Positions 2,165 through 25,258 of a stretch of DNA of 64,000 bases are shown here, in pieces. The stretch covers positions 1-64,000 of the forward strand of contig NZ_JAHXZR010000002.1 in assembly GCF_019740315.1 (NCBI RefSeq). Reading direction: 5' to 3'. The notes under the pieces were generated by a model. The model did not search any database and was not told where the DNA came from. It saw nothing but the letters and a program-made list of their open reading frames with translations. Positions within the stretch are counted from its first letter, which is position 1; every line of letters starts with the position of its first letter. Made by a program: the position numbers and the translations under genes. The stretch is from Oceanobacter mangrovi (GTDB lineage: Bacteria > Pseudomonadota > Gammaproteobacteria > Pseudomonadales > Oceanobacteraceae).

Positions 2165-2180
2165 CTGGCACGCGACTTGG
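2165..2180 (+). promoter_or_regulatory. Candidate sigma-54 (-24/-12) promoter for the leader-SPFH-rtcB-rtcA operon
   Basis: TGGCACGcgacTTGGaa has a perfect -24 element (TGGCACG) and correct spacing, but the -12 element reads TTGG rather than TTGC. It is positioned divergently from rtcR, as expected for an RtcR-dependent promoter. Confidence 0.4.
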
Positions 2181-2191
2181 AATTACAAGGG

Positions 2192-2480
2192 TGTAACTCA
2201 GGGTGTGATTCTGAATCACCCCGGTGCGCCAGGAATACCTTTGCGTATGCCGTTACAAACACATGAATCGGATAGCTCTATGGCTGAGCCCGGTCGAGAG
2301 GCCGGAGGTGCAGGTTCGATCCCTGCTCCGATAACCAGGAAGCTCGACAAAACGCGGGATTCGAGCCCCCGCTCCTGACTAAATACCCAAGCGAAAGAGG
2401 GGGTGCGAAGACAGTCTCTGAGGATGTAACGGGCGTAAGAATAACGAATAACACAGGCCGGATTGCCGCTGTTATTCCGG
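2192..2480 (+). ncRNA. Structured 5' leader / candidate Y-RNA-like (YrlA-like) ncRNA containing a tRNA-like cloverleaf, ending at a hairpin plus pyrimidine-rich tract
   Basis: Positions 2266-2337 fold as a 72-nt cloverleaf. Acceptor ATCGGA/TCCGAT; D-arm GCTC-tatGGct-GAGC with GG in the loop; T-arm GCAGG-TTCGATC-CCTGC with canonical T-loop; 3' tail AACCA. The 'anticodon' arm is non-canonical (CCGG-8 nt loop-CCGG). A second T-arm-like motif (GCGGG-ATTCGAGCC-CCCGC) lies at about 2361-2380. A bulged hairpin AATAACAcAG...CTGTTATT followed by a T/C-rich tract at about 2437-2490 could be the 3' end or an attenuator. Confidence 0.4.
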
Positions 2481-2541
2481 TTCTTCGCCCCTTCTTCCAC
2501 ACGCTGATTTTCCCACTCTCGATGTTTGAAAAGGACATTTT

Positions 2542-4966: not shown

Positions 4967-4972
4967 GGAACG

Positions 4973-6004: not shown

Positions 6005-6013
6005 TCACCCGGC

Positions 6014-12523: not shown

Positions 12524-15500
12524 GGCAGTTTTTTCTCCCAGTCCGGATCAGCAGTGGCTTTGGCGGCCACCGCTTCGTAGTCGAGTGCAATGGCATTGAG
12601 CAGGTTGGCGGGCAGCTCGGCCAGCGGGATGTAATCATCTTCCTGGTGCCAGTAACTGCGGTTCGACAGTTTTACCACCTGCATGCTGTAGATGGCGGCG
12701 CTGACTTGCTCTTCCGGCAGGCAGTTACCACTAAAGGTAAAAATCACCTTGAGGCCAAAGCGGTCGAAGGTTTTGGTGTACTCGCCGAACCAGCCAGCGT
12801 CTTCAGCCTGGCCGCGCTCGTAACCGGCTTTGGTCATTACGCCGCGCACGGTAAAGGCATCGGTCAGATAGCCATGGTAATGATCGATTTTACGCTGGCC
12901 CTGCTTGAAGGCGATTTGCGCTGATCTGAGCTGATCGAACAGCGGTGTGACCTTGTAGTCCTTGAGGTGCTGTTGCCAGGCCTTGATGTCTGCCATATCG
13001 GCTTCAGCCAGTGCTACGGCGCTGAGCAGTCGGATGCGGCTGTTGTAAGGGATGCTGACTTCGTCGTCATCGAGGTTGATGAATTCGTCCTCTTCGGTGG
13101 GGCGGAAGCTGACCCATTCGCCGTCGATCTCTACTTGCCACAGCAAACGTTGTAACAGACGGTTCATCACCGGGTGCTGATGCAGGTATTGCAGCCAGTC
13201 GCCGCTGTGCCATTCGCGGTCGGTGATCATGGCGTCGTACAGTCGGGCCTGTTGTTGCTCGACCACTTGCTTGAGTTCTTTCTTGCTGTTGCTGAACCAC
13301 TTTTTGGTGTCGCTGATGGCTTCCTTGTCGTCGTCCTGACGAGGCTGTGGCAGGGCTTTGATGAGCTTGCCATCAGTGCTGAGTAGTTGCAGTTTCAAGC
13401 TGTCGTCGAGCTGGATGCTGAGGGTGCGACTGCCGTATTCAAATTCGGTCGGGCCGTGCAGCTGTTCCAGACCGGCGGTCTGAATCGTGCGGTCGGCCAG
13501 CTCGTCAGCACTCCAGTCATTGCGGGTCGCGATATTGTCGATCAGTTGACGAGCCAGACTCTGTACTGAGGCGGTGCGGTAGCGGCGGGCAATACCGAGC
13601 ACAAACTGGATCATGACAGGGTCATCACTGTCGCCCACCGCCGCCAGCATGGCTTCGATTTGTGAGCGGCGCTTGTAATGCTCTTTCATGAATGGCCGAA
13701 TCAGCCCCAGCAGTTGCTGGCTGTCACCGCGTTTGGTCAGTGCCAGCAGGCCTTTTTCCTTGATGGCTGAACCGAACAACTGCACCTTGCGATTGCGATA
13801 CAGCTCGCGGTAGGCGTCGTCGGTGGTTTTGTTGGCATACTCGGCTCCCCAGCTGGATTTGGCCCATTGCTGATAGCGGCTGTAAAGCGCAGATTTGCCT
13901 TGCTCGGCGTGTTCGTGAGCCTCTTCATCGGTTGGGCAGCGGGTGTCCTGGTCGATAAAGCTGGATAGCAGGAAGTGTGCGAGGCGCTGATTACTGTTGT
14001 TGTCAAGCAAGGTCAGATAGCTGTCCAGCAGCGCGTTACCTTCCGGTTGTTTGAGTTTGACCGCCAGTACTATCCACCAGAACAACAGCGGTTCCGGTAC
14101 CGCGCTGCCGTCGCTAAAGGTCACTGCCGGCAGTTGCTCGCGCGGGAACCAGTCCATCGATTTTGGTGGTGCCTTGCGCAGACCGGCATTGGCTTCTTTT
14201 TCCAGCAGCTTCAGAGTCAGAAACTCGCTGATGTCATAACCACTGCGTTGCAGGGCATCGATGATCAGTGCTTGGGTCGGTGCGTCTTTTTCTTTTTGCA
14301 AGGCTTGCAGCAAGGCTGGTTGTGATTCCTCAAGGCCGAGGCGGCCAAGCCACTGGATGATGTCTGCACGCAGGGCTTTTTCACGACTTGCAAGCATTTC
14401 TAACACTCGTGAGAGGTCGATGCCGAGAGCCTCAACGGTACGGAACGCTTGCTGGCGTACATAACGGGATTCATGCAGGCAAAGGTCATAGAGGGCGTTA
14501 CTCCAGCGGGCTGGCAGCTGTGGAAAATACTGCAGCAAGCGCAGGCTGCTCATGATGATGTCGTTGCTGTCCAGATGGCCTGTAGCGGTATATTGGCCTT
14601 TGAGGCCATCATCAATCAGCGATTCATGCTCTGCCAGATACGGCCATATTTTCAGCTCGAGCAAGTATTCCGGTATGTCGCCATTGCTGGCAAATAACAG
14701 TGTTTCGATGGATTGCGATTCAACGACTTCTTCGGCGGCAATGGCCATCAGTTGGCGAAAGTCGCTCAGTTCATTCACCAGTCGGGCAAAGTACGGCTGA
14801 TGGCGTAAAAATCCCCAGGAGAGAGTGTGTGTGCCCAGAAAACGAAACAGGTGGCGGAGGTTGGTATCCGGTTGCTGGATAAGATTGGCGTTTCTGAAGA
14901 TGGTGTCCAGTTGCGGGTTGGCTGGCCGAGCTTCTGCATTGGCCAGACAGTCAATCACCTGTTGCAGGTCGGCATCGGTAATTGAACGCAGTTTGACCAG
15001 TGACTGTTTGGCCTTTTCAAGATATTGGACTTCGTATGGACGAGGGCTCTCAGACTGCTCGAGATAACGCTGCTGGTTTTCAATACTGGATTCGGTGTAA
15101 CGAATGCGCTGCTGGCGGGACTGCTGCAGCAGTCCGAACCAGTGGGCCGGAATCTCCTTGCTGATTTCAATCGGGCTGGCCGCAGGAATCTGCCATTCAA
15201 ACGGCGTGTCATCATCGGGCTGCTGGTGATTGGCCAACCGCTGCAGGGCTTCCAGTGCTTTGGGAGCAGTTTCTGTTTCAAGCCATTGTTCTAACAGTGG
15301 TTTGCAATCCGGGTGTTCTGCGGCGGCGGCGACCCAGTGTAGCCGGGTGGATGCTTTGGCTTTGGGATATTGTTGTTGCAGGTACTCGACCAGCGGTTGC
15401 CCCGGTAGTCGGTGGATTTCCAGTAGGGTGGCCTGACGCACACCTTTGGCGCTGTCGGCCGCCAGTTTTAGCAAGGGCTCAATAAATGCTTCGGAATTGG

Positions 15501-16176
15501 TGGTCTGGTCAGTTTGCAGTTGTTTGCCTAACAGGCGTGCCAGTGTGGCACGGGCACTGACGTGCAGATCTTGCAGCGCTTGCAGCCAGTCCGGGTCGCA
15601 GGCAAGGGTCAGCCAGTCGGTGGTGTTTTGAAGACGCTGATGTAATTTGCAGTAATTTAAATAGTAGCTGTAGGTATTTTCCAGCAGCCAGGTATCCAGC
15701 AACATCGGGTCTTGCTGGTATTCCTGCAGGGTAGACACCAGTACCTCACGGTCGATGGCATCGTAATGGCCCGCCAACAGAGCCAGCATTTTGAGAGCCC
15801 AGCCATCCGGGCGGTTGTTCATATGACGGGAGTAACGATAGTCGTAGTACCTACCTGCGTGCATTACCCGCCCCAAACGCACCCATATAGCTGGTTGAGC
15901 TCCGCTTTCGGAGGCGAGAAATTCTTTCAGGGCTTGCTCGACCTTGCTGTGCTGTTTGGTCAACTCATCCGGGAAACCGCCACGACTGCTGCCGGGGTAG
16001 AGGGATTGATTATGGCTGGCCAGATCATCCAAAGCCGTTGCCGGTGAGCCGGTCAGAATGTAGCTGGCAATGGCCTGGCCAAGTCCGGTGTGAAAATACT
16101 CGATGGCGGTGCAGGCAGTGTTGAGCAGGGTAATACTTTCTTGTTGGCTGGGCGCTGGAGTCAGGGTAGCTGACAT
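12517..16176 (-). CDS. Giant DUF4132-family protein (YehI/MolR-like), first gene of the cluster
   Basis: About 1219 aa from the internal start MSATLTPAP (16174-16176). That start has an AAGGAT RBS. The longest ORF (to 16392) would run through the REP-like element. Size and position match E. coli YehI (1210 aa). Confidence 0.6.
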   Translation of the reverse strand: MSATLTPAPSQQESITLLNTACTAIEYFHTGLGQAIASYILTGSPATALDDLASHNQSLYPGSSRGGFPDELTKQHSKVEQALKEFLASESGAQPAIWVRLGRVMHAGRYYDYRYSRHMNNRPDGWALKMLALLAGHYDAIDREVLVSTLQEYQQDPMLLDTWLLENTYSYYLNYCKLHQRLQNTTDWLTLACDPDWLQALQDLHVSARATLARLLGKQLQTDQTTNSEAFIEPLLKLAADSAKGVRQATLLEIHRLPGQPLVEYLQQQYPKAKASTRLHWVAAAAEHPDCKPLLEQWLETETAPKALEALQRLANHQQPDDDTPFEWQIPAASPIEISKEIPAHWFGLLQQSRQQRIRYTESSIENQQRYLEQSESPRPYEVQYLEKAKQSLVKLRSITDADLQQVIDCLANAEARPANPQLDTIFRNANLIQQPDTNLRHLFRFLGTHTLSWGFLRHQPYFARLVNELSDFRQLMAIAAEEVVESQSIETLLFASNGDIPEYLLELKIWPYLAEHESLIDDGLKGQYTATGHLDSNDIIMSSLRLLQYFPQLPARWSNALYDLCLHESRYVRQQAFRTVEALGIDLSRVLEMLASREKALRADIIQWLGRLGLEESQPALLQALQKEKDAPTQALIIDALQRSGYDISEFLTLKLLEKEANAGLRKAPPKSMDWFPREQLPAVTFSDGSAVPEPLLFWWIVLAVKLKQPEGNALLDSYLTLLDNNSNQRLAHFLLSSFIDQDTRCPTDEEAHEHAEQGKSALYSRYQQWAKSSWGAEYANKTTDDAYRELYRNRKVQLFGSAIKEKGLLALTKRGDSQQLLGLIRPFMKEHYKRRSQIEAMLAAVGDSDDPVMIQFVLGIARRYRTASVQSLARQLIDNIATRNDWSADELADRTIQTAGLEQLHGPTEFEYGSRTLSIQLDDSLKLQLLSTDGKLIKALPQPRQDDDKEAISDTKKWFSNSKKELKQVVEQQQARLYDAMITDREWHSGDWLQYLHQHPVMNRLLQRLLWQVEIDGEWVSFRPTEEDEFINLDDDEVSIPYNSRIRLLSAVALAEADMADIKAWQQHLKDYKVTPLFDQLRSAQIAFKQGQRKIDHYHGYLTDAFTVRGVMTKAGYERGQAEDAGWFGEYTKTFDRFGLKVIFTFSGNCLPEEQVSAAIYSMQVVKLSNRSYWHQEDDYIPLAELPANLLNAIALDYEAVAAKATADPDWEKKLPW

Positions 16177-16247: not shown

Positions 16248-16334
16248 TGCTGTCCCGACATATCATGCCCCTACGCAAGACGTGTAAATTCGCTTGCGTA
16301 GGGGAAAGGCATACCTTGTCGGTAGCCTTGCCAG
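16248..16334. repeat. REP-like triple-hairpin intergenic element, copy A (inverted relative to copies B and C)
   Basis: The reverse complement aligns with copy B: CTGGCAAGGC...CCCCTACGCAAG-loop-CTTGCGTAGGGG...GTCCCGACATaTC. Intergenic, between the Coq4-like stop and the yehI-like start. Confidence 0.6.
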
Positions 16335-16342
16335 ACGCTGGC

Positions 16343-16960
16343 TTACAAGGTCCGTTGGCTGGCCTTGTCGGCTGGGTAACGACGGCGTTCAATCTGGTAG
16401 TAGGCCTTTAACAGTTCGACCTCAACACCAATTTCCTGTCGCACCTGTTTGATTGGCATATCCATATACGGCTCGTAATCTACTTCCGCCAGTGGCGTGC
16501 AGTCCGATACAAAGCCAAGTCGCACGGCATCCTTGAAGACGTGAATGTCTTCGTCATTGAACTTGTACGGGCCGGGGTACAGATACTTGGCGGCCAGTGT
16601 AAAGAGTCGTTCTTCGGTGGTGGTCACCCGATTGGAGCTGCCCATGGTGAAGCCAATCACAAAGGCTTCGTCCTTCGGCAGCATGCCGCGACCCAGTATG
16701 GCGTGAATACAGTCGTGGGCTTCCAGGCCGACCGCACCGTTAAACAGGTTGATGCCGGGAATATCAAATTTGGGGTTCTCAACCAGCTGAACGATCAATG
16801 GGATGTCTTGCTGGCCTGCCTGAAGATGCAGGGCAGTGGCCAGAATTTCGCGTAAGGTCAGCTGTTCTTCGGCAACCGGTACAATCCAGTCGCGCCAGCT
16901 TTCAACGTGATAGGGCTTGGTTTCCATCCATTTTTCCTCGTTGGGTGTCCGTTGTCTCAA
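16343..16960 (-). CDS. Coq4-family protein (ubiquinone biosynthesis Coq4-like, zinc-binding HDxxH-x11-E motif)
   Basis: HDCIHAILGRGMLPKDE matches the Coq4 HDxxH-(x)11-E signature exactly. About 200 aa. It lies 6 nt downstream of TelA on the same strand. Confidence 0.5.
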   Translation of the reverse strand: MRQRTPNEEKWMETKPYHVESWRDWIVPVAEEQLTLREILATALHLQAGQQDIPLIVQLVENPKFDIPGINLFNGAVGLEAHDCIHAILGRGMLPKDEAFVIGFTMGSSNRVTTTEERLFTLAAKYLYPGPYKFNDEDIHVFKDAVRLGFVSDCTPLAEVDYEPYMDMPIKQVRQEIGVEVELLKAYYQIERRRYPADKASQRTL

Positions 16961-16965
16961 TTGGC

Positions 16966-18204
16966 TCAGGCTGGATCGGTGGCATCGATGATCAACAAGC
17001 CCTGCTCCTGTTCGGCGGCACGGCCTTGCTCGACCTTGCGAATGGCTTCTTCCATACGCTCGCTGAGCTGGTTCATGTCTTCGATGGATTCACGCATCGG
17101 TGTCAGAGCCTGCTTGCGGAAGCTCGACAGATCGGCAATCGCCTGTTCGACATTGGCAAAGGCAGCCTTGATCTTGTTGATGTCGAGGTTGGCAGAGCTG
17201 GCCTGTTTCTGGATCTCAACACCCTGGGTACGCAGCTGTTCGGATGTCGACAGCAGCATATCGCTGGTGGTGCTGTTGAGCTCGTTGGTGGCGTCGAGCA
17301 CCTTTTGTTGACGTTTGAGGGCGATTGCCAGGGTTGCCGCCACGCCCAGTGCGGTAATGGTGACGTTTAACGCCCGTTCGACACCACGGATCAGCTGTTT
17401 GTTGTTTTCAACAATCACATCAATCGACAGGTATCCCTGCTGGTTGACCGCCAGTTGCTGTTGCAGATCCATAATGCGCTGGTTGATCGGGAACAGCACC
17501 TTGTCTTGCAGAAAGCCTTTTTGCTGGTCGTCAGTCGTCATGGCACTGACCGCCGCGCTGAGTTTCTTTTCGGCCAGCTGGCCGAGGGTGATGTAGTCTT
17601 CCAGCTGATAGGTGAGCTGGCGCATTACCGACTGGTCATTCATCAGCGTGGTGTTGTCGTTTACCAGCTGCTGTTTGCCCGCTTCCATGTTCTGAACAAT
17701 GTCTTTCAGCACGGCTTCAACGGTCTGGTACTTGGCGTACCAACGTGCCAGCGGTGTACCAAAGCCGGGAATCAGCGACAGCAGCTTGCGAAAGCCACTT
17801 TCTGACAGATTGAACTTGTTGGGGTTAACCTCGGCCACACGCTCCTGCAGTTGCAGCAGGTTTTTCGCCACAGGGCCGCCGTCATCGGCTTCGGAGATCA
17901 GGTGAGCCGGGGCTTTCAGCATGGCACTGCTGTGGCGGTTGAGTTGTTGCTGGGCATCCGCGCCCAGTGTTTCTACGGTCGCGACAGCCTGACGTTGGGC
18001 GGCTTCATTACGGCCATCAATAGCCAGCAGGGAAGCGACGAACTGGTCGGCCTGACGTTCGTATTCGCTTTCAACGGAAGCGGCACGCTGGTCGCGGGAT
18101 GCGTTCAATTGCGGCAGCTTTTCCTGCTTCAGCTGGGTCAGAGTCACCGGCTTGAGTTCAAGACCCGGGCTGGCGTGTTCAACTGGGTTAGTCATCGTAT
18201 TCAT
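16966..18204 (-). CDS. telA: TelA-family toxic-anion-resistance protein
   Basis: About 410 aa, all-alpha and coiled-coil rich, typical TelA/KlaB length. Start overlaps the stop of the upstream XpaC-like gene. The TelA-XpaC pairing is a known conserved dyad (Bacillus yaaN-xpaC). Confidence 0.6.
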   Translation of the reverse strand: MNTMTNPVEHASPGLELKPVTLTQLKQEKLPQLNASRDQRAASVESEYERQADQFVASLLAIDGRNEAAQRQAVATVETLGADAQQQLNRHSSAMLKAPAHLISEADDGGPVAKNLLQLQERVAEVNPNKFNLSESGFRKLLSLIPGFGTPLARWYAKYQTVEAVLKDIVQNMEAGKQQLVNDNTTLMNDQSVMRQLTYQLEDYITLGQLAEKKLSAAVSAMTTDDQQKGFLQDKVLFPINQRIMDLQQQLAVNQQGYLSIDVIVENNKQLIRGVERALNVTITALGVAATLAIALKRQQKVLDATNELNSTTSDMLLSTSEQLRTQGVEIQKQASSANLDINKIKAAFANVEQAIADLSSFRKQALTPMRESIEDMNQLSERMEEAIRKVEQGRAAEQEQGLLIIDATDPA

Positions 18205-18998
18205 TCCTTGTCTTGACGAATGGAGTAGCGCGCCAGGCGCTGGATATGGTGGTCAAATTCTTTCATGGCATCCTGCAATGCCATTTTTTCGAGTGCACCT
18301 GTGGTGATTGAGGCCAGCTCGGCGGCAGAAACATCCAACAGCGTCAGCGCTGCCTCGTTATCAACGAACAACTGCTGCACGGCCTGTTGTTTGTCGTGAT
18401 AAAGCGCCAGTCGGGTGCTCAGGGCCGTGTGTTGCTGCTGCGGTAAATCTGGCTGTTGCAGTTGCTGTTCAAGCTCTGCAACCTGGATGGTACTGATGGA
18501 TTTCAGCAGGTCCGCTGCCTGAATCAGGTTGTCGAGGCTGGCGTGATAAACCGTCATGGCCTTGTTGAGATAACGTGAATAGGTCAGCTCCTGCGGGTCC
18601 AGCTTGCGGCCCAACAGCTCACGGAAATTATCGAATTTTTCATTCAGTTTGCTGAACTGGCGCTGGCCGATAGCCGAATCGAGTTCAACAAAGCTGGCTT
18701 TGAGGGCGGCCAGTTTCTGTTCGCGTTGTTGTTCCATCGCTTGCTGATATTGCTGTAGCAGGCGTTTTTCGATACGGCTTTGGCCGGTGGCCAACAGCAC
18801 TGGCAAATTGATGCAGGACCAGGCCAGCATCAGCCCGGCAGCGGCGTACAGGTAGAGTTGATTACCAAACACAAACAGATTGGCGGCACCCGCCAGTAAC
18901 GCCCCCGTGAGCGGGTAGACAGTACCCGGATGCTCAACCGCCGAGACAATCAGTTTGCGTTTGACGGTGGCCGGATCGAGATAGTTATTGAGAGACAT
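18201..18998 (-). CDS. XpaC-like membrane protein (5-bromo-4-chloroindolyl phosphate hydrolysis protein family)
   Basis: 265 aa with two N-terminal TM helices (YPLTGALLAGAANLFVF; LYLYAAAGLMLAWSCINLPVLL) followed by a long coiled-coil/Q-rich region. Translationally coupled to telA. Confidence 0.45.
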   Translation of the reverse strand: MSLNNYLDPATVKRKLIVSAVEHPGTVYPLTGALLAGAANLFVFGNQLYLYAAAGLMLAWSCINLPVLLATGQSRIEKRLLQQYQQAMEQQREQKLAALKASFVELDSAIGQRQFSKLNEKFDNFRELLGRKLDPQELTYSRYLNKAMTVYHASLDNLIQAADLLKSISTIQVAELEQQLQQPDLPQQQHTALSTRLALYHDKQQAVQQLFVDNEAALTLLDVSAAELASITTGALEKMALQDAMKEFDHHIQRLARYSIRQDKE

Positions 18999-19007
18999 AC
19001 TGCTTCC

Positions 19008-20543
19008 TCAAATGGGATCTCGTTTCAGTATCAGTTCAACCCGTGGCAAACGATAACGCCAGGCTCGCAGTGATTCGCCAGGCTGGCGTTGCAGCGGTTG
19101 CTCGCCCCCAAAACCTGTGGCCATCAGCCGTTTACTGTCGAGCTGATAGTGGCTGCTCAAATAGTCGGCAACGGCCTGGGCACGGGCCAGTGACAACGCC
19201 TTGTTGGCGTCAGCATCGCCCTGATTGGTGGTATGTCCGGCAATCAGGAGGCGGAAGCTGGGATAGTGACGCAGGGTCTGAATCGCATCATCGAGCAGGC
19301 TTTCACCTTCCGGAGTGAGGCTGTGAGAGCCGTTCAGAAATGACACCGGCTGGATTTTTAACGTGCCCACGGTTTCCAGCTGCTGCCAGGCCGCAGCCGA
19401 TAATTCCGTGAAGCGGGTTGTCGGGTTACCAGGCTCGGCCAGGTCACCGGTGTTTTGCAGTACCGAATACAGCTGTTTTAACGGGTTGCTGTAAATCAGC
19501 CGAAAGGGATCGTTATCCGGCAGATTCACCTTGTCCTGGCTGGCAAACGCCTGCAGCGTTGCGCGGGTATCCTGGATGGTTTGTACCAAACCAATATCCG
19601 CCAGTGCGTCGGTAATACCGAACCAGCGTTCGGCATTGGCCTGCAAACCGGCCCAGCCAACACCACGAACCAGCTCGGCGTTCTGGGCCGTTTTCAGGCC
19701 GGTCCAGTCCTGCAGATCCTTGTTAAGGGTGTCTGGCTGGCTGCGGTAATAACGCAAGGTGCGGAAGTAGGCGTTCAGCACGGTACGCAGGGCATCCGGG
19801 TTTTTGCTGGCGAAGTCGCGGTTGGCCAGCAGGATATCAACGATCACACCTTCGGTGCTTTCGGTACCGATCAGACGTTTGATACCGTCAATTTGCAGCG
19901 CCTTGCTGACATCCGGTTCCCATAAAACAGCCGCCGCCACCTGATGCTGTTGCAGTGCTGCCAGCGCTTGTTGGGAGCCGTCGGTATAACGGGCCCAGCT
20001 GTCATCCTGGCGCAGGCGTTCAATATCGAAATGCACCGCCAGTGATTTCAGCAGCTGGTGACTGGGGGAATTGGGCGTTAGCGCGATACGGCTGTCGCCT
20101 TGCTTGAGATCGTCCAGTGATGCCACCTGATCCGCCCAGCCAACCAGCGCGTCACCGCCCTTGGACTCGTCGATTACCGCAATCATGCTGGCGGCCCACT
20201 GATTGGACTGACCGTGCAGCAACCAGGAATCGACGGTGCCGACTGCCAGATCGAGTTTGCCACTACTGAGGGCCTGATAACGGCTGGCGTAGTCGCCATA
20301 ATCATTCACACAGTCAAGCCGGATACCTTCCAGATACAAACGCTTTTGCAGCTCGGATGAACAGAGTGGGAAATAGCCCACCCAGCCATCAACGCCGACC
20401 GTCAGGGTCTGGCGAATCTGCGCCGAATCCGACACCGACTTCTGGTTCGATACCTGTTGCCACTTATTGTAAGTGGCGTAGCCAGCAATGGTGACGGCGC
20501 CAACCAGCAGGATCGAAAGCGCAATATGCTTGTGCTGGGCCAT
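19008..20543 (-). CDS. Membrane-anchored periplasmic substrate-binding-like domain fused to a C-terminal OmpA-like peptidoglycan-binding domain
   Basis: N-terminal TM helix IALSILLVGAVTIAGYA; central NMT1/TauA/PhnD-like SBP fold; C-terminal OmpA_C-like motif (LIAGHTTNQGDADANKALSLARAQAVADYL). Confidence 0.55.
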   Translation of the reverse strand: MAQHKHIALSILLVGAVTIAGYATYNKWQQVSNQKSVSDSAQIRQTLTVGVDGWVGYFPLCSSELQKRLYLEGIRLDCVNDYGDYASRYQALSSGKLDLAVGTVDSWLLHGQSNQWAASMIAVIDESKGGDALVGWADQVASLDDLKQGDSRIALTPNSPSHQLLKSLAVHFDIERLRQDDSWARYTDGSQQALAALQQHQVAAAVLWEPDVSKALQIDGIKRLIGTESTEGVIVDILLANRDFASKNPDALRTVLNAYFRTLRYYRSQPDTLNKDLQDWTGLKTAQNAELVRGVGWAGLQANAERWFGITDALADIGLVQTIQDTRATLQAFASQDKVNLPDNDPFRLIYSNPLKQLYSVLQNTGDLAEPGNPTTRFTELSAAAWQQLETVGTLKIQPVSFLNGSHSLTPEGESLLDDAIQTLRHYPSFRLLIAGHTTNQGDADANKALSLARAQAVADYLSSHYQLDSKRLMATGFGGEQPLQRQPGESLRAWRYRLPRVELILKRDPI

Positions 20544-20546
20544 GGT

Positions 20547-21380
20547 TTATTGGCTGCCTCCATCACTGAAACTGGTGACATCAAACGACGGAGCTTCAGC
20601 GACCACCGCTTCCAGACCGGCGGTCAGTGATTTTTCGTCATTGGCCTGGTAATAGGCGGTAATGCCTGGTTGATTGAGCGGGTGATCCTTACCGATACAG
20701 AAACCAATGGTGTGAATGTTGATCGGTGTGGTGTGGTTCAGTTTGGTAATCACGTTATCCGGTGCTTCACCGTCGCTGGGCAGGCCATCGGTCACAATCA
20801 CCAGGTGGTATTCACCATATCCCAACTGGCGAATGGCCTGCTCGGTGAGCATGCCAGCGGATTCCCTGATGGAAGTTTTTAATGGCGTGCCGGCACCAGC
20901 GACCAGTTTATTGAGTGCTGCGGCCAACTGCTGCTGATTGTAGTGGCCGAGCCCCAGCCGAGGCCCCATGCCAGCCTGATCGAAGGCATAGATACCGACG
21001 TTGGCGTCGGTCGGGACGGATGTCATAAAACTGAGGGCCGCTCGTTTGGCGGCGTCCAGACGGGTGCCTCGATCGGAACATTCAGTGGACCCCATCGACC
21101 CTGAACCGTCGATCAACAACAGATAATTGGCTTGCAACATCTGTTCGGAGTCCAGTGCGGCCGGGCTGCCCTGAGCCACTTTGGGCCAGCTGTTATCCGT
21201 TCCCCGGGCTCCATAGGCTGCCGCGGGTGGTTGCTTTGGCTGGCTGTTGAAGCTGCTGTTGGCCATCGTCGTCTGGCCCGGGTTAGCGGAATCGTCACAA
21301 CCACTGACCAGCAAGGTGAACGCCAGCGGCAGTGCCAGTAGGGCCGGACTACCGAGGGTTTGGCTAAATCCTTTTTTCAT
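20547..21380 (-). CDS. VWA-domain lipoprotein
   Basis: Lipobox LLVSGC after a signal peptide. MIDAS LLLIDGSGSM ... TDG. About 277 aa. Flanked by the two SBP::OmpA paralogues at 4-12 nt spacing. Confidence 0.7.
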   Translation of the reverse strand: MKKGFSQTLGSPALLALPLAFTLLVSGCDDSANPGQTTMANSSFNSQPKQPPAAAYGARGTDNSWPKVAQGSPAALDSEQMLQANYLLLIDGSGSMGSTECSDRGTRLDAAKRAALSFMTSVPTDANVGIYAFDQAGMGPRLGLGHYNQQQLAAALNKLVAGAGTPLKTSIRESAGMLTEQAIRQLGYGEYHLVIVTDGLPSDGEAPDNVITKLNHTTPINIHTIGFCIGKDHPLNQPGITAYYQANDEKSLTAGLEAVVAEAPSFDVTSFSDGGSQ

Positions 21381-21391
21381 CCGAGTGCTCC

Positions 21392-23089
21392 TCACAGTGG
21401 CTTGAAGATGTCTTCTTCAGCAGTGATTGGAATCATCCGGAACACCACTCGCATATTGGACAACCACTGAGCCTCGGTTTTCGGCGCACAGGGGTCCTGA
21501 CCGCAGATGCCGGTGGCCGGGTTGGTAATGCCATAACCAACCAGCGCGAACTGGGATGGATCAAGTGCTACGCCGGCCTTGTTGCTGTAGGCAATAATGG
21601 CGTCACGAACTTCGCGGGCTCGGCTGTAGGAAAGGTTCTTGCCAGACTGTTTCAGGCGGTTCAGAACGATGCTGCTCTTGCCCTCTTTTTGGGCCCGCAG
21701 CCAGGCCATCGGATCGGAATGGCCTTCGACCGTAATAATCGCGCCGCTGTAGGTAGCCGCCATATCCATGGCTTTGGCGAAGTCGCTGCCATACAAATCG
21801 GTAGAGAAGTTTTCCTGATTGGGGCGGAACAACACCTCGAAGGAGAACTCGCCATCGGATTCCAGCGTACCGGCTTTCTGTTTCTGGCTCACCAGCGAGG
21901 CAACTTTCTGTTCATCGAATTGCTGGTTACGGGAAACGCCGGACGATTTAACACCGGCTGCCAGATTGGCGAAGTTCCAGCTGGCGATTTGTACCGGATG
22001 GGCGCTTTTCAACATGCCCAGTGAAACCAGACCCGCCTGGATTTCATCAGCCAGTTTGAACACGTTGCGTGGGTAGTTGCTGTCGTTGAAGAACAAACGG
22101 TTGGCTTCGGCGTCAGCCAGTTGGGCATCGGCAAAGAAACCGGCCACTTCGTCGGTTGCGTTGGCGCTGTCAAACAGCACTGCTGCAGAACCACGGGCCA
22201 GTTTGTCGTAGCCGCCTGCACGGCTTTTCATCAGTGCCACTACCTGTTCATCCGCCTGCATCAGACCGGAGACAAAGGCCTCTACCGCTGCCGGATTACG
22301 CTTGAGGTAGTCATCACGGACGGCATAAACGTCGGCGATGATGCGGTTGGCAGAGCGGGTATCCAGCGCGATTCGGGCACCTTTGACGGAACCTTCTGCA
22401 CCGGTACCAACAGTACCGTCGGAAGTCAGGGCAAGTGCATCCGGGGTAATCACAAAGACCGCATCAACGTCTTGCTGGTAGAGGGCTTCCGCGGGGGAAT
22501 TCTCCGTGCCGGTCAGGTCTGGCAGCCACTTGAGGGTGACCTCGTTGAGACCAATGCCAGCGTCTTTCAGTACCCGCGCCATATAGTCAACGTGAGGGCC
22601 GTAAGCTTGCAGGGCAATGGTTTTGCCTTTCAGATCAGCCAGAGAACGAATGTTGTCTTTCACCACCAGAGCGTCGCCACCGGCCGACCAGCTCATCTGG
22701 TAAATCACTACTGGCTTGATGTTGTGTTTGGCGAGCAATTCCTGCGAGGCCAGCACCATCCCCAGCGTGCCACGCAGGTAGGGAGATTTACCGCTGACAA
22801 AGTTCTCTAACTGGGTATCAAAGGAATCGACCCGTTCAATCGACAGGTTCAGGCTGGACTGCTGGAATAGCGAGGCATTGGCCGTTTTGGGCTGGTCACC
22901 GTTGGCGTGAATCACCTTCATATCGGCGGGCCAGGTAATGACGGGTACAGAGACCGAGCGGACCGAGGCGACATCGCCATACTGGACGGGCAGTTCGAGC
23001 AGGGGTTTGGGAGAAATATAAGCCGGGCTGGCAAACGCAAAGGTGCTGAATAAAGACAGCAGGCAGCCAGCGAGATAACCTGATCGCAT
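21392..23089 (-). CDS. Secreted substrate-binding-like domain fused to C-terminal OmpA-like domain (paralogue of 19008-20543)
   Basis: Start chosen at MRSGYLAGCLLSLFSTFAFA (signal peptide; AAGGA RBS). C-terminal OmpA-like segment (ITVEGHSDPM...SYSRAREVRDAI). Same domain architecture as the gene at 19008. Confidence 0.55.
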   Translation of the reverse strand: MRSGYLAGCLLSLFSTFAFASPAYISPKPLLELPVQYGDVASVRSVSVPVITWPADMKVIHANGDQPKTANASLFQQSSLNLSIERVDSFDTQLENFVSGKSPYLRGTLGMVLASQELLAKHNIKPVVIYQMSWSAGGDALVVKDNIRSLADLKGKTIALQAYGPHVDYMARVLKDAGIGLNEVTLKWLPDLTGTENSPAEALYQQDVDAVFVITPDALALTSDGTVGTGAEGSVKGARIALDTRSANRIIADVYAVRDDYLKRNPAAVEAFVSGLMQADEQVVALMKSRAGGYDKLARGSAAVLFDSANATDEVAGFFADAQLADAEANRLFFNDSNYPRNVFKLADEIQAGLVSLGMLKSAHPVQIASWNFANLAAGVKSSGVSRNQQFDEQKVASLVSQKQKAGTLESDGEFSFEVLFRPNQENFSTDLYGSDFAKAMDMAATYSGAIITVEGHSDPMAWLRAQKEGKSSIVLNRLKQSGKNLSYSRAREVRDAIIAYSNKAGVALDPSQFALVGYGITNPATGICGQDPCAPKTEAQWLSNMRVVFRMIPITAEEDIFKPL

Positions 23090-23437
23090 GATCTGTTCCT
23101 TGGTAATGACTGGGCGAATCACATGGTGCTGCGGCGGTGATCGCAAGCAACAGTTGGTTGAGTGACGATTTCCCGGTTCATGGCATCCATGCGAGATGGA
23201 CAGGTTAACAGACTGACAAAATGGCTTGGTGATCAATACAGCAAAAATTGCCGCCAGGTGACTGGATGAGGTGTGTGCCTAATTGGCAAAGTTGCCATTG
23301 TTATGTATTTGTTCGATTGGTCATTTCATTGTTTGGCGTTGCTCTGAATTTAAAGGAGCGGTGCAAAAAACGAATTTGAGAGGGCAAATGTGGCAGGGAC
23401 AAACGGATCTGGCGACGGTAGAGCAAGAGAGAAAAAC

Positions 23438-24100
23438 ATGAAGTTTCTGATATTCCTGGGGTCAGTGCGTGACAGTACGCCGCCGCGTCCGGCGCGTTTG
23501 GGGGCCCGGCTGGTGCAAGCGTGCCTGACGTGTTTGCAGGTGAATTATGGCGACCATCAATTTGAAGTTATTGATCCGCTCGACTATCCACTCGAACCCG
23601 TATTCAAACCACATTTTGCCTATTCCAGTCGTCAGGTTCCTGAACCCCTTCAGCGGCTGGCTGATAAAATTGCCGCAGCAGACGGCTATGTGATGGTCAG
23701 CCCGGAATACAACCATTCCATGAGTCCGGCGCTGGCCAACCTGCTGAACCACTTTGGCAGCTCGCTGTTCGCCTTTAAACCCAGCGCCATCGTTACCTAT
23801 TCGGCAGGCCAGTGGGGTGGTATGCGAGCGGCGGTGGGAATGCGCACCTTTTTATCTGAATTGGGATGCTTGCCGGTATCGGCGATGATTCACGTACCGA
23901 AAGTGCAGGACGTGTTTGATGAGCAGGGTGAGCCTCTGGCCGGGGTTGAGTTGGCCGATTGGCAGGCGTATTTCGGTCGCACTTTTAATCAGCTGCTGTG
24001 GTGGGCGGATGCGACGGCCAAACAACGTGCCGCGGTTGATCCTCATCAGGCCATTGGCCATTTTCAGCGTTCAGCAGATCAGCGTAATGCGCCGGGCTGA
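23438..24100 (+). CDS. NAD(P)H-dependent FMN reductase-like flavoprotein (FMN_red / flavodoxin-like fold)
   Basis: MKFLIFLGSVRDSTPPRP...SPEYNHSMSPALANLLNH...YSAGQWGG is the characteristic SsuE/NAD(P)H:FMN reductase signature. Confidence 0.75.
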   Translation: MKFLIFLGSVRDSTPPRPARLGARLVQACLTCLQVNYGDHQFEVIDPLDYPLEPVFKPHFAYSSRQVPEPLQRLADKIAAADGYVMVSPEYNHSMSPALANLLNHFGSSLFAFKPSAIVTYSAGQWGGMRAAVGMRTFLSELGCLPVSAMIHVPKVQDVFDEQGEPLAGVELADWQAYFGRTFNQLLWWADATAKQRAAVDPHQAIGHFQRSADQRNAPG

Positions 24101-25258
24101 TTACGCTCCTCTGTCAGCTGCTTCCGCCAGCCGTTCATCCGTCAGCAGCTCAGCTGCGATTCTGGATGCGGCTCGCAGAGCGCCTTCCAGATAGCCGCCA
24201 AAAGCCGGATCGGTTTCGCTGCTGCCAAACCAGAGTTTGTTGCTCCAGTGGTCGAGCCGCAACCAGGGATGGCCATAGTCCGGGTGACTGGTGGGTAAGT
24301 TGGCATCGGCAGCCACGGCGGTGGTGTCTTGCCGGAACCAGTCCTGAATATGAATGGCATCCGGGCTGGCGGCCTGTGGTCCAAACAGTTGACATAACTG
24401 CTCGACGATCAGGTCAGGTAAGTCTTGCCGGTATTGCTGGCGCAGCTGGGTTGGCAAGGCAAAAAATCCGCCCAGCGCCGCTTGGCTGGTATCGGCATTA
24501 CAGGCGTCAAAAATTTCTCCCAGCATCGCACCGGGATATTGCGCAAAACCATTGCCGGACAAACCCTGCTGACGCCAGAACGGCGTCGGGTATTGAATGA
24601 TGGCTTTGGCATGGCCTGCCATCCAGGTTGGCGTGTTATCCAACAGCTGTTTTAGTTTGTTATCGAGTGGCGGCTCACATTGGATTTGCTGGCTGACCAG
24701 TCGCGGCGGCAGACACAGCACCACCTTGCGGGCCTGCAGACGCAGTTCGTTCTGGTTCGGCGTGTTGAATACCAGTTCGACCCGATCGTCATGATTCAGC
24801 AACGCTGTCAGCCGCTGATGCAAGTGAATGCATGTGGTTGGAATCTGTCTCTGCAAAATTTCTATCAGGCGTTCAACACCACCTTCAATGCGGTAGGCAC
24901 CCCGATAACCCTGCTGATCGGGGAACTGCACGGTGGGCTGTTCCAGCGCGCTTTTGTAGACCGCCTGACCACGCTGGTACTGCGGAAAAACCGGTAACTG
25001 GTGCTGGATAGCAAACTGGCGAATATGGCTTTGGTCATCCGGCCAGATCCAGGTAGGGCCAAGATCAAAGCGGCTATTCGGGCTTTCGCTTGTATGCGGG
25101 CTTTCGCTTGATAGCGGCGTTGAGAGAATACGGCCACCCAGCCGGTTGTTCGCCTCAAAGACAGCCAGTCGCTTGTCAGGCGCCTGTTGGCTTAGTTGAG
25201 CGGCGAGGGCCAGACCCGATAAACCGCCACCAATAATTGCCAGATCGAGAATCGCCAT
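24101..25258 (-). CDS. FAD-dependent oxidoreductase of the flavin amine oxidase family
   Basis: N-terminal dinucleotide-binding LDLAIIGGGLSGLALA...VFEANNRLGGR. Start ATG overlaps the stop of the upstream ORF (ATGA). Confidence 0.7.
   Translation of the reverse strand: MAILDLAIIGGGLSGLALAAQLSQQAPDKRLAVFEANNRLGGRILSTPLSSESPHTSESPNSRFDLGPTWIWPDDQSHIRQFAIQHQLPVFPQYQRGQAVYKSALEQPTVQFPDQQGYRGAYRIEGGVERLIEILQRQIPTTCIHLHQRLTALLNHDDRVELVFNTPNQNELRLQARKVVLCLPPRLVSQQIQCEPPLDNKLKQLLDNTPTWMAGHAKAIIQYPTPFWRQQGLSGNGFAQYPGAMLGEIFDACNADTSQAALGGFFALPTQLRQQYRQDLPDLIVEQLCQLFGPQAASPDAIHIQDWFRQDTTAVAADANLPTSHPDYGHPWLRLDHWSNKLWFGSSETDPAFGGYLEGALRAASRIAAELLTDERLAEAADRGA

What the first reader, a model, noticed from the sequence alone, without database searches (positions are those of the whole stretch)
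16966..23089. Envelope-associated operon: two paralogous SBP-like::OmpA fusions flanking a VWA lipoprotein, followed by XpaC-like and TelA
Five consecutive minus-strand genes are separated by 12 nt or less, or overlap (ATGA couplings at 21392/21395 and 18201/18204). The architecture is unusual. Two paralogues combine a periplasmic solute-binding-protein fold with a C-terminal OmpA peptidoglycan-binding domain. One is TM-anchored and one is secreted. They bracket a MIDAS-containing VWA lipoprotein. The operon ends with the TelA-XpaC dyad implicated in toxic-anion or membrane-stress resistance. No ABC permease or ATPase is present, so the SBP domains are probably sensors or tethers rather than transport components. 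This looks like a periplasm/cell-wall-anchored sensing or stress-response module. I do not recognise it as a characterised system.
Basis: partly seen in the sequence, partly recalled or inferred. Interest (0 to 1): 0.7.

Follow-up and report, generated by a model that had tools for sequence, protein, structure and literature searches.

The report
Conserved TelA envelope operon, transporter missing here
The five genes are real and form the core of an uncharacterised, horizontally spread envelope gene cluster that in about 85% of other bacteria also encodes a guanidine/urea-type ABC importer, giving a testable lead on the long-enigmatic TelA protein.

Summary
The five tightly packed minus-strand genes exist as described in Oceanobacter mangrovi. 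They are:
- g1: a secreted SsuA/TauA-like binding protein with a divergent OmpA-like end.
- g2: a lipoprotein VWA with a full MIDAS.
- g3: a membrane-anchored binding protein fused to OmpA.
- g4: a 2-TM helical protein.
- g5: TelA.

- The g1/g2 junction is GTGA, and g2 probably starts at ATG 21380.
- g4 shows no detectable homology to XpaC. It shares only position and topology.
- The operon continues into a sixth gene, a Coq4-like HDxxH-x11-E protein at 16343-16927.

Comparative result:
- The order g1-g2-g3-g4-g5 recurs across at least eight phyla and on Vibrio plasmids.
- In 42-44 of 51 fully sampled loci it is joined to an ABC importer whose binding protein is a TIGR03427 equivalog. In one locus a second copy of that binding protein sits behind a guanidine-I riboswitch.
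- This window is a minority form that lacks the importer. The inference "no transporter, hence sensors" therefore does not hold for the family.

Best model (low confidence): a trans-envelope module. A peptidoglycan-attached, ligand-binding periplasmic arm works with the importer. A g4-TelA arm acts at the inner face of the membrane.

I found no published description. The neighbouring DUF4132-MoxR-VWA-SWIM cluster is unrelated.

The parts
23090..23389 (.). Intergenic region upstream of g1, shared with a divergent FMN-reductase gene (23435-24100, +). Presumed promoter/leader of the operon.
   Evidence: Sequence. AAGGAA Shine-Dalgarno before ATG 23089. No sigma-70 consensus site. No Rfam family at gathering score and only a chance-level hit at E 0.019. 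No leader conserved across taxa. FMN_red hit.
21392..23089 (-). g1: secreted periplasmic protein of 565 aa. Signal peptide (…FAFA|SP), an NMT1/SsuA/TauA-type binding-protein domain, a helical middle region, and a divergent OmpA-like C-terminal domain with a ~16-residue insertion. Conserved C-terminal tail AE…F.PL.
   Evidence: NMT1 E 5e-9 (36.8 bits, cut-off 20.5) and SsuA_fam E 1e-15. OmpA E 5.7e-4 on the C-terminus. hhalign to the g3 OmpA domain 92.9%. EGHSD aligns to EGHTD of 3td3. Conservation in 69 orthologues. N-terminal hydrophobic segment in 53/70 sequences.
20547..21380 (-). g2: membrane-tethered periplasmic VWA protein with a complete MIDAS. In this genome it is a lipoprotein (LVSG-C-DD). 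An alternative GTG start at 21395 would overlap the g1 stop.
   Evidence: VWA_2 E 6e-11 and VWA E 2e-7. Start-site reading. DxSxS/T/D, WP, GYGEY and IGFC conserved in 72 orthologues. Many orthologues carry an uncleaved N-terminal TM helix instead of a lipobox.
19008..20543 (-). g3: inner-membrane-anchored protein of 511 aa. N-terminal helix, TauA/SsuA-fold binding-protein domain, linker, and OmpA-like peptidoglycan-binding domain.
   Evidence: OmpA E 3.5e-16. SsuA_fam E 5e-14. AF2 pLDDT 86, pTM 0.81, helix 2-37. Best PDB matches are TauA 6ssy and SsuA 3uif/2x26, TM 0.69-0.74. OmpA-like PDB hits down to E 1e-21. 100% identical to an Oceanobacter mangrovi protein.
18201..18998 (-). g4: 265-aa inner-membrane protein. 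N-terminal TM hairpin followed by a cytoplasmic all-helical bundle. An unnamed family, always directly upstream of telA in this cluster.
   Evidence: No Pfam or NCBIfam hit. AF2 pLDDT 90, all helices. No specific PDB neighbour. Family of 548 50%-identity clusters. Conserved motif ELTxxRYLGxAEQVYLxxLDNL.
16966..18204 (-). g5: TelA-family protein of 412 aa. Cytoplasmic and helical, with one hydrophobic segment at 278-296. Translationally coupled to g4 (ATGA).
   Evidence: PF05816 E 1.1e-65, 222 bits against a cut-off of 30. Junction. No solved relative. Hydrophobic segment.
16343..16927 (-). g6: 194-aa soluble protein with an invariant HDxxH-x11-E motif (Coq4-like metal site). Sixth gene of the operon here, and an optional member of the cluster elsewhere.
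   Evidence: Start and Shine-Dalgarno. Coq4 C-terminal half at E 0.003-0.005 in three independent members, below cut-off. Motif invariant in 11/11. Linked in 14/51 loci at up to 75% identity, sometimes between S and P.
16268..16304 (-). Perfect 12-bp hairpin in the 166-nt gap after g6. Probable 3' boundary of the transcription unit. It has no U tract, so it is not a canonical intrinsic terminator.
   Evidence: Sequence. dG -26.4 kcal/mol, z -4.4, 0 of 200 shuffles as stable. The genes beyond it are never linked to the module elsewhere.

Best explanation
Window 16343-23089 (minus strand) is a six-gene operon of Oceanobacter mangrovi. It is the transporter-less form of a conserved, horizontally mobile envelope gene cluster.

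The full form of the cluster has these parts:
- g1: a secreted binding protein fused to an OmpA-like domain.
- g2: a membrane-tethered periplasmic MIDAS-VWA protein.
- g3: an inner-membrane-anchored binding protein fused to an OmpA domain.
- g4: a 2-TM protein with a cytoplasmic helical bundle.
- g5: TelA.
- A NitT/TauT-family ABC importer (binding protein S, permease P, ATPase A).
- Sometimes g6 (a Coq4-like protein) and a classical AAA ATPase.

Shown:
- The domain content and the topology signals.
- The conservation of gene order across phyla and on plasmids.
- The tight but permutable linkage to the importer.
- S is a TIGR03427 equivalog. In one locus a second copy of that family sits behind a guanidine-I riboswitch. 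The NitT/TauT binding protein GimA binds guanidine (KD about 97 nM).

Inferred mechanism:
- g3 spans from the inner membrane to the peptidoglycan.
- With peptidoglycan-bound g1 and the MIDAS-VWA protein g2, it forms a wall-attached periplasmic assembly. Its Venus-flytrap domains bind the same or a related small solute as the importer, probably a guanidinium/urea-class compound.
- g4 anchors and regulates TelA at the cytoplasmic face, as XpaC appears to do for TelA in Firmicutes. Occupancy or flux of that solute is thereby coupled to a TelA-dependent adjustment or protection of the membrane.
- In O. mangrovi the importer genes are absent from the locus. The module then either works with an importer encoded elsewhere or acts as a stand-alone sensing and protection unit.
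For: Genes, spacing and coupling.

Domains.

Organism.

Distribution: 240 species hold a g3 relative. The 80 loci fetched span Gamma- and Betaproteobacteria, Desulfobacterota, Bdellovibrionota, Elusimicrobiota, Verrucomicrobiota, Bacteroidota and Nitrospirota, all at a uniform 40-48% identity.

Gene content in 51 loci with full flanks:
- g1, g2 and g3 in 51.
- g4 in 48 and g5 in 46.
- P in 44, A in 43 and S in 42.
- Orders: 12345SPA (16 loci), PA12345S (6 loci), A12345SP (3 loci).
- Linkage that survives rearrangement argues for a functional tie.

The same cluster lies on Vibrio plasmids pAM7 and pSEA2 (MOBH).

The importer:
- S matches TIGR03427 at 508 bits against a cut-off of 334.
- In L019 a guanidine-I riboswitch (89 bits) precedes a second S copy that shares all motifs with the operon copy.
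- GimA data come from PMC12704784.
- The proposed GimA site residues (W59, W62, D135, F205, D233) map at a constant offset of about 24 onto conserved W35, W38, D112, W181, D208 of S.
- Four of these five positions are chemically similar in g3 (Y57, D131, W208, D236), and those g3 residues are invariant in A1. Two or three are kept in g1.

Inner-membrane tethering of g2: orthologues have an uncleaved TM anchor, and the window copy has Asp at +2.

g4/TelA as a pair: ATGA coupling and co-presence in 46/51 loci.

XpaC-TelA precedent: a DaptoR phenotype of delta-xpaC appears only when telA is intact (PMC6811118). A telA mutant is nisin-sensitive (cited in PMC12791056).
Against: - No experiment exists on any member of the cluster.
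- The ligand assignment is indirect. I could not obtain the GimA sequence, so the residue mapping rests on numbering offsets.
- By NCBIfam, g1 and g3 score better against generic SsuA_fam than against TIGR03427.
- g1 lacks two of the five aromatic or acidic positions.
- No guanidine riboswitch lies upstream of the module in the window or in seven loci tested. A crude nhmmer scan of all loci also found none.
- No guanidine-catabolic genes are consistently linked.
- About 14% of loci, including this window, lack S, P and A. A few lack TelA: L058 keeps g4 but not TelA, and L063 stops after g3.
- g3 lacks the canonical Asp of the GHTD peptidoglycan-binding motif: T in this copy and G in the family consensus, with no Asp conserved there. 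Its wall binding is therefore unproven.
- Physical contacts between the parts are not tested.
Confidence: 0.42

Rival explanations
1. It is a self-contained periplasm/cell-wall-anchored sensing or stress-response module. The binding-protein domains act purely as sensors or tethers, TelA/g4 is the stress effector, and there is no functional dependence on a transporter. The importer often found next to it is a passenger.
For: The window and about 7 of 51 fully sampled loci carry g1-g5 without S, P or A. All five genes here are intact and keep the family-invariant residues, so the module is presumably functional without an adjacent importer. The pocket of g1 has diverged from that of S. TelA/XpaC are tied to envelope stress in Firmicutes.
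Against: S, P and A are in the cluster in 82-86% of loci. Linkage is retained through at least three gene-order permutations and on plasmids. A passenger would not be expected to do that. S immediately follows telA in most loci. An importer elsewhere in the O. mangrovi genome was not excluded.
Confidence: 0.25
2. It is a transport accessory only. g1 and g3 are wall-immobilised substrate-capture proteins that concentrate a scarce solute in the periplasm and hand it to S or the permease, with g2 as an assembly factor. g4 and TelA only regulate or stabilise the transporter.
For: There are three paralogous binding-protein domains per cluster (hhalign 96-97%). g3 keeps four of the five putative ligand positions. 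The g1-g2-g3 trio is the most constant part (51/51), and it can occur with S-P-A but without TelA (L058/L066).
Against: Clusters lacking the transporter persist. No precedent is known to me for OmpA-anchored capture proteins feeding an ABC importer. It does not explain the near-constant presence of TelA/g4 or the MIDAS-VWA.
Confidence: 0.15
3. It is an anti-phage or conflict system related to the Ter/TelA world. An envelope-located sensor of phage attachment or injection triggers a TelA-mediated membrane response.
For: The distribution is patchy, crosses phyla and includes plasmids. TelA and vWA proteins are grouped with Ter phage-inhibition systems by Iyer et al. (PMC7824862). An AAA ATPase with an IetA-like AAA domain adjoins the cluster in 15/80 loci. 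In this window it lies beside a MoxR-VWA cluster.
Against: There is no meaningful PADLOC hit for g1-g6. The only hits are generic MotB/OmpA-domain matches for g3 and a marginal RT_UG33 hit for TelA. No nuclease, protease, toxin or NTPase effector lies in the core. Only 1 of 2.9 million viral contigs carries a g3 relative. The MoxR cluster is never co-located elsewhere. The tight link to a nutrient-type importer is atypical for defence islands.
Confidence: 0.08
4. It is a chance juxtaposition of unrelated envelope genes with no common function.
For: None beyond the absence of experiments.
Against: The genes have 3-11-nt gaps and an ATGA overlap. The same order occurs in 46-51 of 51 loci from many phyla.
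Confidence: 0.01

Closest known systems
xpaC-telA (yaaN) dyad of Bacillota (B. subtilis xpaC-yaaN; L. monocytogenes lmo1966-1967; E. faecium xpaC-telA)
   Same: A small N-terminally membrane-anchored helical protein is encoded immediately upstream of, and coupled to, a TelA-family gene. TelA is a true family member. There is a functional link to cell-envelope stress in the literature.
   Different: g4 is not detectably homologous to XpaC. There is no PF10112 hit in 57 orthologues, and hhalign is no better than a reversed control. The Bacillota dyad has no periplasmic partners, no OmpA or binding-protein fusions, and no linked ABC importer.
GimABC guanidine importer / TIGR03427 'urea-carboxylase-region' ABC transporters (NitT/TauT family)
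   Same: In other genomes the cluster contains a TIGR03427-equivalog binding protein with a permease and an ATPase. A paralogue in L019 is guanidine-I-riboswitch controlled. g1 and g3 carry the same binding-protein fold.
   Different: GimABC and its relatives sit with guanidine-degrading enzymes and are NtcA- or riboswitch-regulated. Here there are no catabolic genes and no riboswitch before the module. The window itself has no S, P or A. The binding-protein domains of g1 and g3 are fused to wall-binding domains.
Inner-membrane-anchored OmpA-like wall binders (MotB/PomB, TssL, YiaD) and Pal/YfiB
   Same: g3 has an N-terminal membrane anchor, a periplasmic spacer and a C-terminal OmpA-like domain. 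Its best sequence matches include YiaD, PomB/MotB, TssL, Pal and YfiB.
   Different: The spacer is a complete TauA/SsuA-type binding protein. There is no MotA/ExbB/TolQ-type partner. The canonical Asp of the GHTD motif is missing in g3.
Ter tellurite/phage-resistance clusters with vWA proteins (TerY/TerF) and TelA
   Same: A TelA-family protein and a MIDAS-type vWA protein co-occur in one cluster that is patchily distributed and plasmid-borne. Ter systems are described as membrane-linked stress or defence complexes (PMC7824862).
   Different: No TerB, TerC or TerD domain is found in any cluster protein. The vWA here is periplasmic (signal or lipobox) rather than cytoplasmic. There is no biosynthetic or kinase/phosphatase module.

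Membership tests
TelA (PF05816, toxic anion resistance protein) | Full-length match to the family profile above the curated cut-off | tested here: met
   g5: E 1.1e-65, 222.3 bits against a cut-off of 30, profile positions 13-331 of 332.
[quoted passage not shown] | Sequence-profile match to PF10112 | tested here: not met
   No hit for g4 at E<=1. No hit in any of 57 orthologues scanned individually.
XpaC (PF10112) | Profile-profile similarity to bona fide XpaC above background | tested here: not met
   hhalign of A2 against 18 PF10112 proteins gives prob 19%, score 30.3. The reversed XpaC alignment scores 31.9 and block shuffles reach 28.6.
XpaC (PF10112) | Architecture and context: N-terminal TM segments, cytoplasmic helical domain, gene directly upstream of telA | tested here: met
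   AF2 model has a TM hairpin at 24-42 / 48-~70 followed by a helical bundle. There is an ATGA overlap with telA. Compare xpaC-telA in L085-L087. This shows analogy, not membership.
OmpA_C-like peptidoglycan-binding domain (PF00691) | Profile match above the curated cut-off | tested here: met
   g3: 59.8 bits against 27.2, with PDB OmpA-like hits down to E 1e-21. g1: only 20.6 bits against 27.2, but hhalign to the g3 domain gives 92.9%, E 3.7e-7. This is met for g3 and sub-threshold but supported for g1.
OmpA_C-like peptidoglycan-binding domain (PF00691) | Conserved Asp (GHTD) and Arg (LSxxRA) that contact the diaminopimelate of the wall peptide. The residue roles are recalled from the A. baumannii OmpA structures, not checked here. 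| tested here: inconclusive
   g1 has both: EGHSD, aligned to EGHTD of 3td3, and SRA. g3 has the Arg (R454, invariant) but T in place of the Asp, and the family consensus has G there. Binding itself is not testable here.
NitT/TauT-type periplasmic binding protein (NMT1 PF09084 / SsuA_fam TIGR01728) | Binding-protein fold of the SsuA/TauA class | tested here: met
   g1: NMT1 36.8 bits against a cut-off of 20.5. g3: Pfam scores just below cut-off (18.6 against 20.5), but the AF2 model matches TauA/SsuA with target TM 0.69-0.74, E 4e-15. Both score far below the NCBIfam equivalog cut-offs.
ABC import system | Cognate permease and ATPase encoded with the binding protein | tested here: not met
   There is no P or A homologue anywhere in the window. 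Elsewhere the feature is met in 43-44 of 51 loci.
GimABC / TIGR03427 guanidine(urea)-class importer | Binding protein reaching the TIGR03427 equivalog score | tested here: not met
   Window proteins: g3 36 bits and g1 18 bits against a cut-off of 334. The S gene of related loci does reach it (508 bits) but is absent here.
GimABC / TIGR03427 guanidine(urea)-class importer | High-affinity binding of guanidine | not testable with these tools
   Only an indirect residue mapping onto the published GimA site was possible.
VWA domain with MIDAS | Profile match plus the DxSxS...T...D metal-site motif | tested here: met
   VWA_2 43.3 bits against 27. D96-G-S98-G-S100, T170 and D203 are conserved in 72 orthologues.
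Bacterial lipoprotein | Lipobox with the acylated Cys after a signal peptide | tested here: met
   g2 has LLVSG-C-DDS. This is not a family-wide feature: many orthologues have an uncleaved TM anchor instead.
Ter (terZABCDEF) system | TerB, TerC or TerD domain proteins in the cluster | tested here: not met
   No such Pfam or NCBIfam hit in g1-g6.
Catalogued anti-phage defence systems (PADLOC-DB 2.0) | Match of the cluster proteins to a system's models | tested here: not met
   The only hits are generic MotB/OmpA-domain matches for g3 (ZorB, E 3.5e-6) and a marginal RT_UG33 hit for TelA (E 3.6e-4).

The most novel reading that the evidence does not exclude
TelA-family proteins are the cytoplasmic effector of a trans-envelope system. 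The periplasmic, wall-anchored Venus-flytrap domains of that system recognise guanidinium or guanidino compounds, possibly including arginine-rich cationic agents. The cluster would couple detection or import of such compounds to a TelA-mediated change in membrane state. This would give the first defined ligand and input pathway for TelA, and the first example of ABC-type binding-protein domains used as ligand-gated struts between membrane and peptidoglycan.
Probability: 0.15. Interest if true: 0.8.

Novelty: new variant of a known kind. Interest (0 to 1): 0.6.

Why it matters
TelA has been linked to tellurite, bacteriocin, lipopeptide and phage resistance for decades, yet no mechanism or input signal is known.

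This cluster places TelA in a fixed genetic partnership with three things:
- defined periplasmic ligand-binding domains;
- a MIDAS-VWA protein;
- an importer family for which a ligand (guanidine) and a riboswitch are now known.

That partnership yields direct experiments: ligand-binding assays, uptake and tolerance phenotypes, and interaction mapping.

Binding proteins fused to peptidoglycan-binding domains are also an unusual architecture for solute recognition.

The cluster is mobile. It crosses phyla and sits on Vibrio plasmids, including a mobilisable (MOBH) plasmid, so it probably confers a selectable trait in aquatic bacteria.

For annotation, names such as 'phosphate ABC transporter substrate-binding/OmpA family protein' and 'nitrate ABC transporter substrate-binding protein' for g3 and g1 are probably misleading.

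Tried and rejected
1. XpaC homology of g4 was rejected by three tests. These were a Pfam scan of g4 and of 57 orthologues, hhalign against 3 and then 18 XpaC sequences, and reversed and shuffled controls. A local motif resemblance (RYLxAEQVYxxLDNL against RFYxAExFYxxLDS) is noted but is not above background.
3. A word-index homologue search with g4 found only 2 proteins. The exhaustive HMMER search was needed to recover the family.
4. I looked for a functional link with the downstream DUF4132-MoxR-DUF5682-VWA_CoxE-SWIM genes and rejected it. None of these genes occurs in the 80 related loci, and a strong hairpin within a 166-nt gap separates them.
5. No guanidine riboswitch or other RNA leader lies upstream of the module. 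No leader is conserved across taxa.
6. Defence-system membership was not supported. There are no PADLOC matches and only one viral contig hit.
7. No further conserved neighbours such as guanidine or urea catabolism genes were found. The only recurring extras are the AAA ATPase (15 loci) and g6.
8. The exact TelA protein was not on record in the contig index.
9. The comparative-genomics paper most likely to have mentioned this neighbourhood is Anantharaman, Iyer and Aravind 2012 (PMC4104200). It is not held, so prior in-silico mention cannot be excluded. Five full-text searches found no description.
10. The sigma-70 and terminator consensus scans were uninformative.

Full report
**What is in the window**

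The window comes from Oceanobacter mangrovi (Oceanospirillaceae). The g3 and g4 products are 100% identical to proteins of that species.

Five minus-strand ORFs lie at the coordinates given. I read the junctions directly:
- g2/g3: a 3-nt gap.
- g3/g4: a 9-nt gap.
- g4/g5: an ATGA overlap at 18204-18201.
- g1/g2: the tetranucleotide is GTGA, not ATGA. An ATG at 21380 preceded by GAGGAG is the more plausible g2 start, which leaves 11 nt after the g1 stop.

A 194-aa gene (g6, 16343-16927) begins 38 nt after the telA stop, with its own Shine-Dalgarno sequence. After g6 comes a 166-nt gap that holds a perfect 12-bp hairpin (dG -26.4 kcal/mol, z -4.4).

**Domain checks**

g5 is an unambiguous TelA (PF05816, E 1e-65).

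g3 carries a canonical OmpA-like domain (E 3.5e-16; PDB relatives include YiaD, Pal, PomB, TssL and YfiB). Its AF2 model (pLDDT 86, pTM 0.81) shows three parts. These are a long N-terminal helix (2-37), a type-II binding-protein fold whose best solved neighbours are TauA and SsuA (target TM 0.69-0.74), and the OmpA-like domain.

g1 has a signal peptide and an NMT1/SsuA-type domain above the Pfam cut-off. Its C-terminal domain is a divergent OmpA-like domain:
- Pfam gives 20.6 bits, and only when the C-terminus is scanned alone.
- hhalign against the g3 domain gives 92.9%, with a ~16-residue insertion.
- EGHSD aligns to EGHTD of A. baumannii OmpA.

g1 and g3 are old paralogues and not recent duplicates: 28% identity over 148 aa.

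g2 is a VWA protein with a full, conserved MIDAS and, here, a lipobox followed by Asp-Asp. Many orthologues replace the lipobox with an uncleaved TM helix. By established knowledge, Asp at +2 is a Lol-avoidance signal. I therefore infer an inner-membrane-tethered periplasmic protein.

**g4 is not XpaC**

g4 has no Pfam or NCBIfam hit. None of 57 orthologues hits PF10112 at E<=1.

I obtained genuine XpaC sequences from xpaC-telA loci of B. subtilis, S. aureus and Cytobacillus and from a homologue search. The profile-profile comparison gave only 19% probability (score 30.3). The reversed XpaC alignment scored 31.9, so the match is at background level.

The AF2 model of g4 (pLDDT 90) is a TM hairpin followed by a helical bundle, with no specific solved neighbour. 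g4 defines its own family of 548 clusters at 50% identity. It is a positional and topological analogue of XpaC. It is not a demonstrated homologue.

**Comparative genomics: the main result**

A scan of one genome per species found g3 relatives in 240 species. I fetched 80 loci with 10-kb flanks. They come from the following groups, all at 40-48% identity, a pattern that indicates horizontal spread:
- Gamma- and Betaproteobacteria
- Desulfobacterota
- Bdellovibrionota
- Elusimicrobiota
- Verrucomicrobiota
- Bacteroidota
- Nitrospirota
- a few others

tblastn of the window proteins against these loci shows g1-g2-g3-g4-g5 in that order almost everywhere. Counts among 51 loci with complete flanks:

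| Gene | Loci (of 51) |
|---|---|
| g1, g2, g3 | 51 |
| g4 | 48 |
| g5 | 46 |
| permease (P) | 44 |
| ATPase (A) | 43 |
| NMT1-type binding protein (S) | 42 |
| g6 | 14 |

- The three importer genes occur in several permutations: 12345SPA, PA12345S and A12345SP.
- g6 shows up to 75% identity to the window protein and sometimes sits between S and P.
- A classical AAA ATPase adjoins the cluster in 15 of 80 loci.
- The whole cluster (A-1-2-3-4-5-S-P) is carried by Vibrio plasmids pAM7 and pSEA2, the latter MOBH-type.

The window has no S, P or A homologue at all. It is therefore a minority form lacking the importer.

**What the importer is**

S is an equivalog-level member of TIGR03427, the 'putative urea ABC transporter' of urea-carboxylase regions (508 bits against a cut-off of 334).

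In Thalassolituus maritimus (L019), a second copy of this family lies 7 kb from the module, directly behind a guanidine-I riboswitch (89 bits). It shares every conserved motif with the operon copy.

A 2025 study showed that the NitT/TauT binding protein GimA of Synechocystis binds guanidine with a KD of about 97 nM. It proposed a site made of W59, W62, F205, D135 and D233 (PMC12704784).
- At a constant offset of about 24 residues, these map onto the conserved W35, W38, W181, D112 and D208 of S.
- hhalign places the g3 residues Y57, L60, W208, D131 and D236 at the same positions. All five are invariant in alignment A1.
- g1 keeps W52, D139 and D253.

This mapping is an inference. I could not retrieve the GimA sequence. 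By NCBIfam, g1 and g3 also score better against generic SsuA_fam than against TIGR03427.

No riboswitch precedes the module itself, and no catabolic genes are consistently linked.

**Mechanism**

Shown: the parts, their predicted compartments, and their conserved genetic coupling.

Inferred:
- g3 bridges the inner membrane and the peptidoglycan.
- g1 is wall-bound and free of the membrane.
- g2 supplies a metal-dependent protein-binding site. A conserved acidic C-terminal tail on g1 (A557-E558…F562-x-P564-L565) is a candidate ligand.
- Together they form a wall-attached ligand-binding assembly that works with the S-P-A importer on a guanidinium/urea-class solute.
- On the cytoplasmic side, g4 tethers or regulates TelA. 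This is analogous to XpaC-TelA, where delta-xpaC has a phenotype only if telA is intact.

I put about 0.4 on this coupled trans-envelope model.

Rivals:
- A stand-alone sensor or stress module: 0.25.
- A pure substrate-capture accessory: 0.15.
- A defence system: 0.08. There is no PADLOC support and only one viral contig.
- Chance juxtaposition is excluded.

**Neighbouring cluster**

Downstream, on the same strand, five overlapping genes encode:
- DUF4132+HEAT
- a MoxR-type AAA_5 ATPase
- DUF5682
- VWA_CoxE
- a SWIM protein

These lie at 6014-16176. They never accompany the TelA module in other genomes and are separated from it by the hairpin and gap. I therefore treat them as an independent unit. 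From memory, they resemble the E. coli molR/yehI-yehLMPQ genes.

**Novelty**

Five full-text searches found no description of this cluster. The 2012 Ter/TelA comparative-genomics paper could not be read, so an earlier in-silico mention remains possible.

All domains are known. The combination, and its link to a guanidine-class importer, appear uncharacterised. I class it as a new variant of the TelA-centred membrane systems, with interest of about 0.6.

Noticed in passing
window 6014-16176 (-): Five overlapping genes lie directly downstream of the finding: DUF4132+HEAT (12517-16176), MoxR-type AAA_5 ATPase (11471-12523), DUF5682 (9183-11483), VWA_CoxE (8089-9294) and a SWIM zinc-finger protein (6014-8092). 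They have no PADLOC match and are never linked to the TelA module in 80 other loci. From memory, they resemble E. coli molR/yehI-yehLMPQ. This was not tested.
   Followed up: partly
window 16268-16304 (-): A perfect 12-bp hairpin with a 13-nt loop (dG -26.4 kcal/mol, z -4.4) lies in the 166-nt gap between g6 and the DUF4132 gene. It has no U tract, so it could be a terminator variant, an RNA-stability element or a REP-like repeat.
   Followed up: partly
window 389-6004: An rtc locus: rtcR (389-2029, -), then on the + strand an SPFH/Band-7 gene (2542-3744), rtcB (3737-4966) and rtcA (4973-6004). A tRNA-like element at 2266-2337 (+) lies in the rtcR-SPFH intergenic region. Rfam scores it as tRNA at 34 bits, and ARAGORN calls it a tRNA with an undetermined anticodon. 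It may be a Y-RNA-like or tRNA-like regulatory RNA of the rtc operon.
   Followed up: partly
L019 20614-20729 (Thalassolituus maritimus): A guanidine-I riboswitch (89 bits) lies immediately upstream of a second TIGR03427-type binding-protein gene, 7 kb downstream of the TelA module. It shares all conserved motifs with the operon-encoded copy.
   Followed up: yes
L012 15996-17498; L060 16990-19357; L044, L045, L047, L061, L063, L069, L074, L076 about 5650-7320 (-): A classical AAA ATPase of about 490 aa (PF00004, with an IetA-like AAA domain in PADLOC) adjoins the cluster in 15 of 80 loci. It is often divergent from g1, or fused in order with g6. In L060 it is followed by a PPK2 polyphosphate kinase.
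   Followed up: partly
L089 (V. rotiferianus pAM7) and L090 (V. alfacsensis pSEA2) 2651-12034: The complete cluster (ATPase, g1, g2, g3, g4, TelA, S, permease) is plasmid-borne, a few kb from an RctB-type replication initiator gene. It is preceded by a 196-aa hypothetical protein that is not g6.
   Followed up: partly
L086 5107-5837 (S. aureus); L087 4118-5945 (Cytobacillus spongiae): In two Bacillota records a VWA-domain (NorD-like) gene lies convergent to, and within 2 kb of, the xpaC-telA pair. This hints that TelA-VWA proximity may recur outside this cluster. It could be coincidence.
   Followed up: no
window 16343-16927 (-) and orthologues in L012, L013, L022, L038, L053, L060, L069, L070, L072, L081: g6 carries an invariant HDxxH-x11-E motif (11 of 11 sequences). 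From memory, this spacing is the proposed zinc site of eukaryotic Coq4. The Pfam Coq4 hits cover only the C-terminal half and stay below the cut-off.
   Followed up: partly
L091 (IMG/VR contig of 545 kb) 10001-11452: This is the only g3 relative among 2.9 million viral contigs. The contig size suggests a megaphage, a plasmid or a misclassified cellular contig.
   Followed up: no
window 23435-26145: Upstream neighbours are a divergent NADPH-dependent FMN reductase (23435-24100, +), a flavin amine oxidoreductase (24101-25297, -) and a 295-aa ORF with no Pfam hit (25258-26145, -). None recurs next to the module elsewhere.
   Followed up: partly
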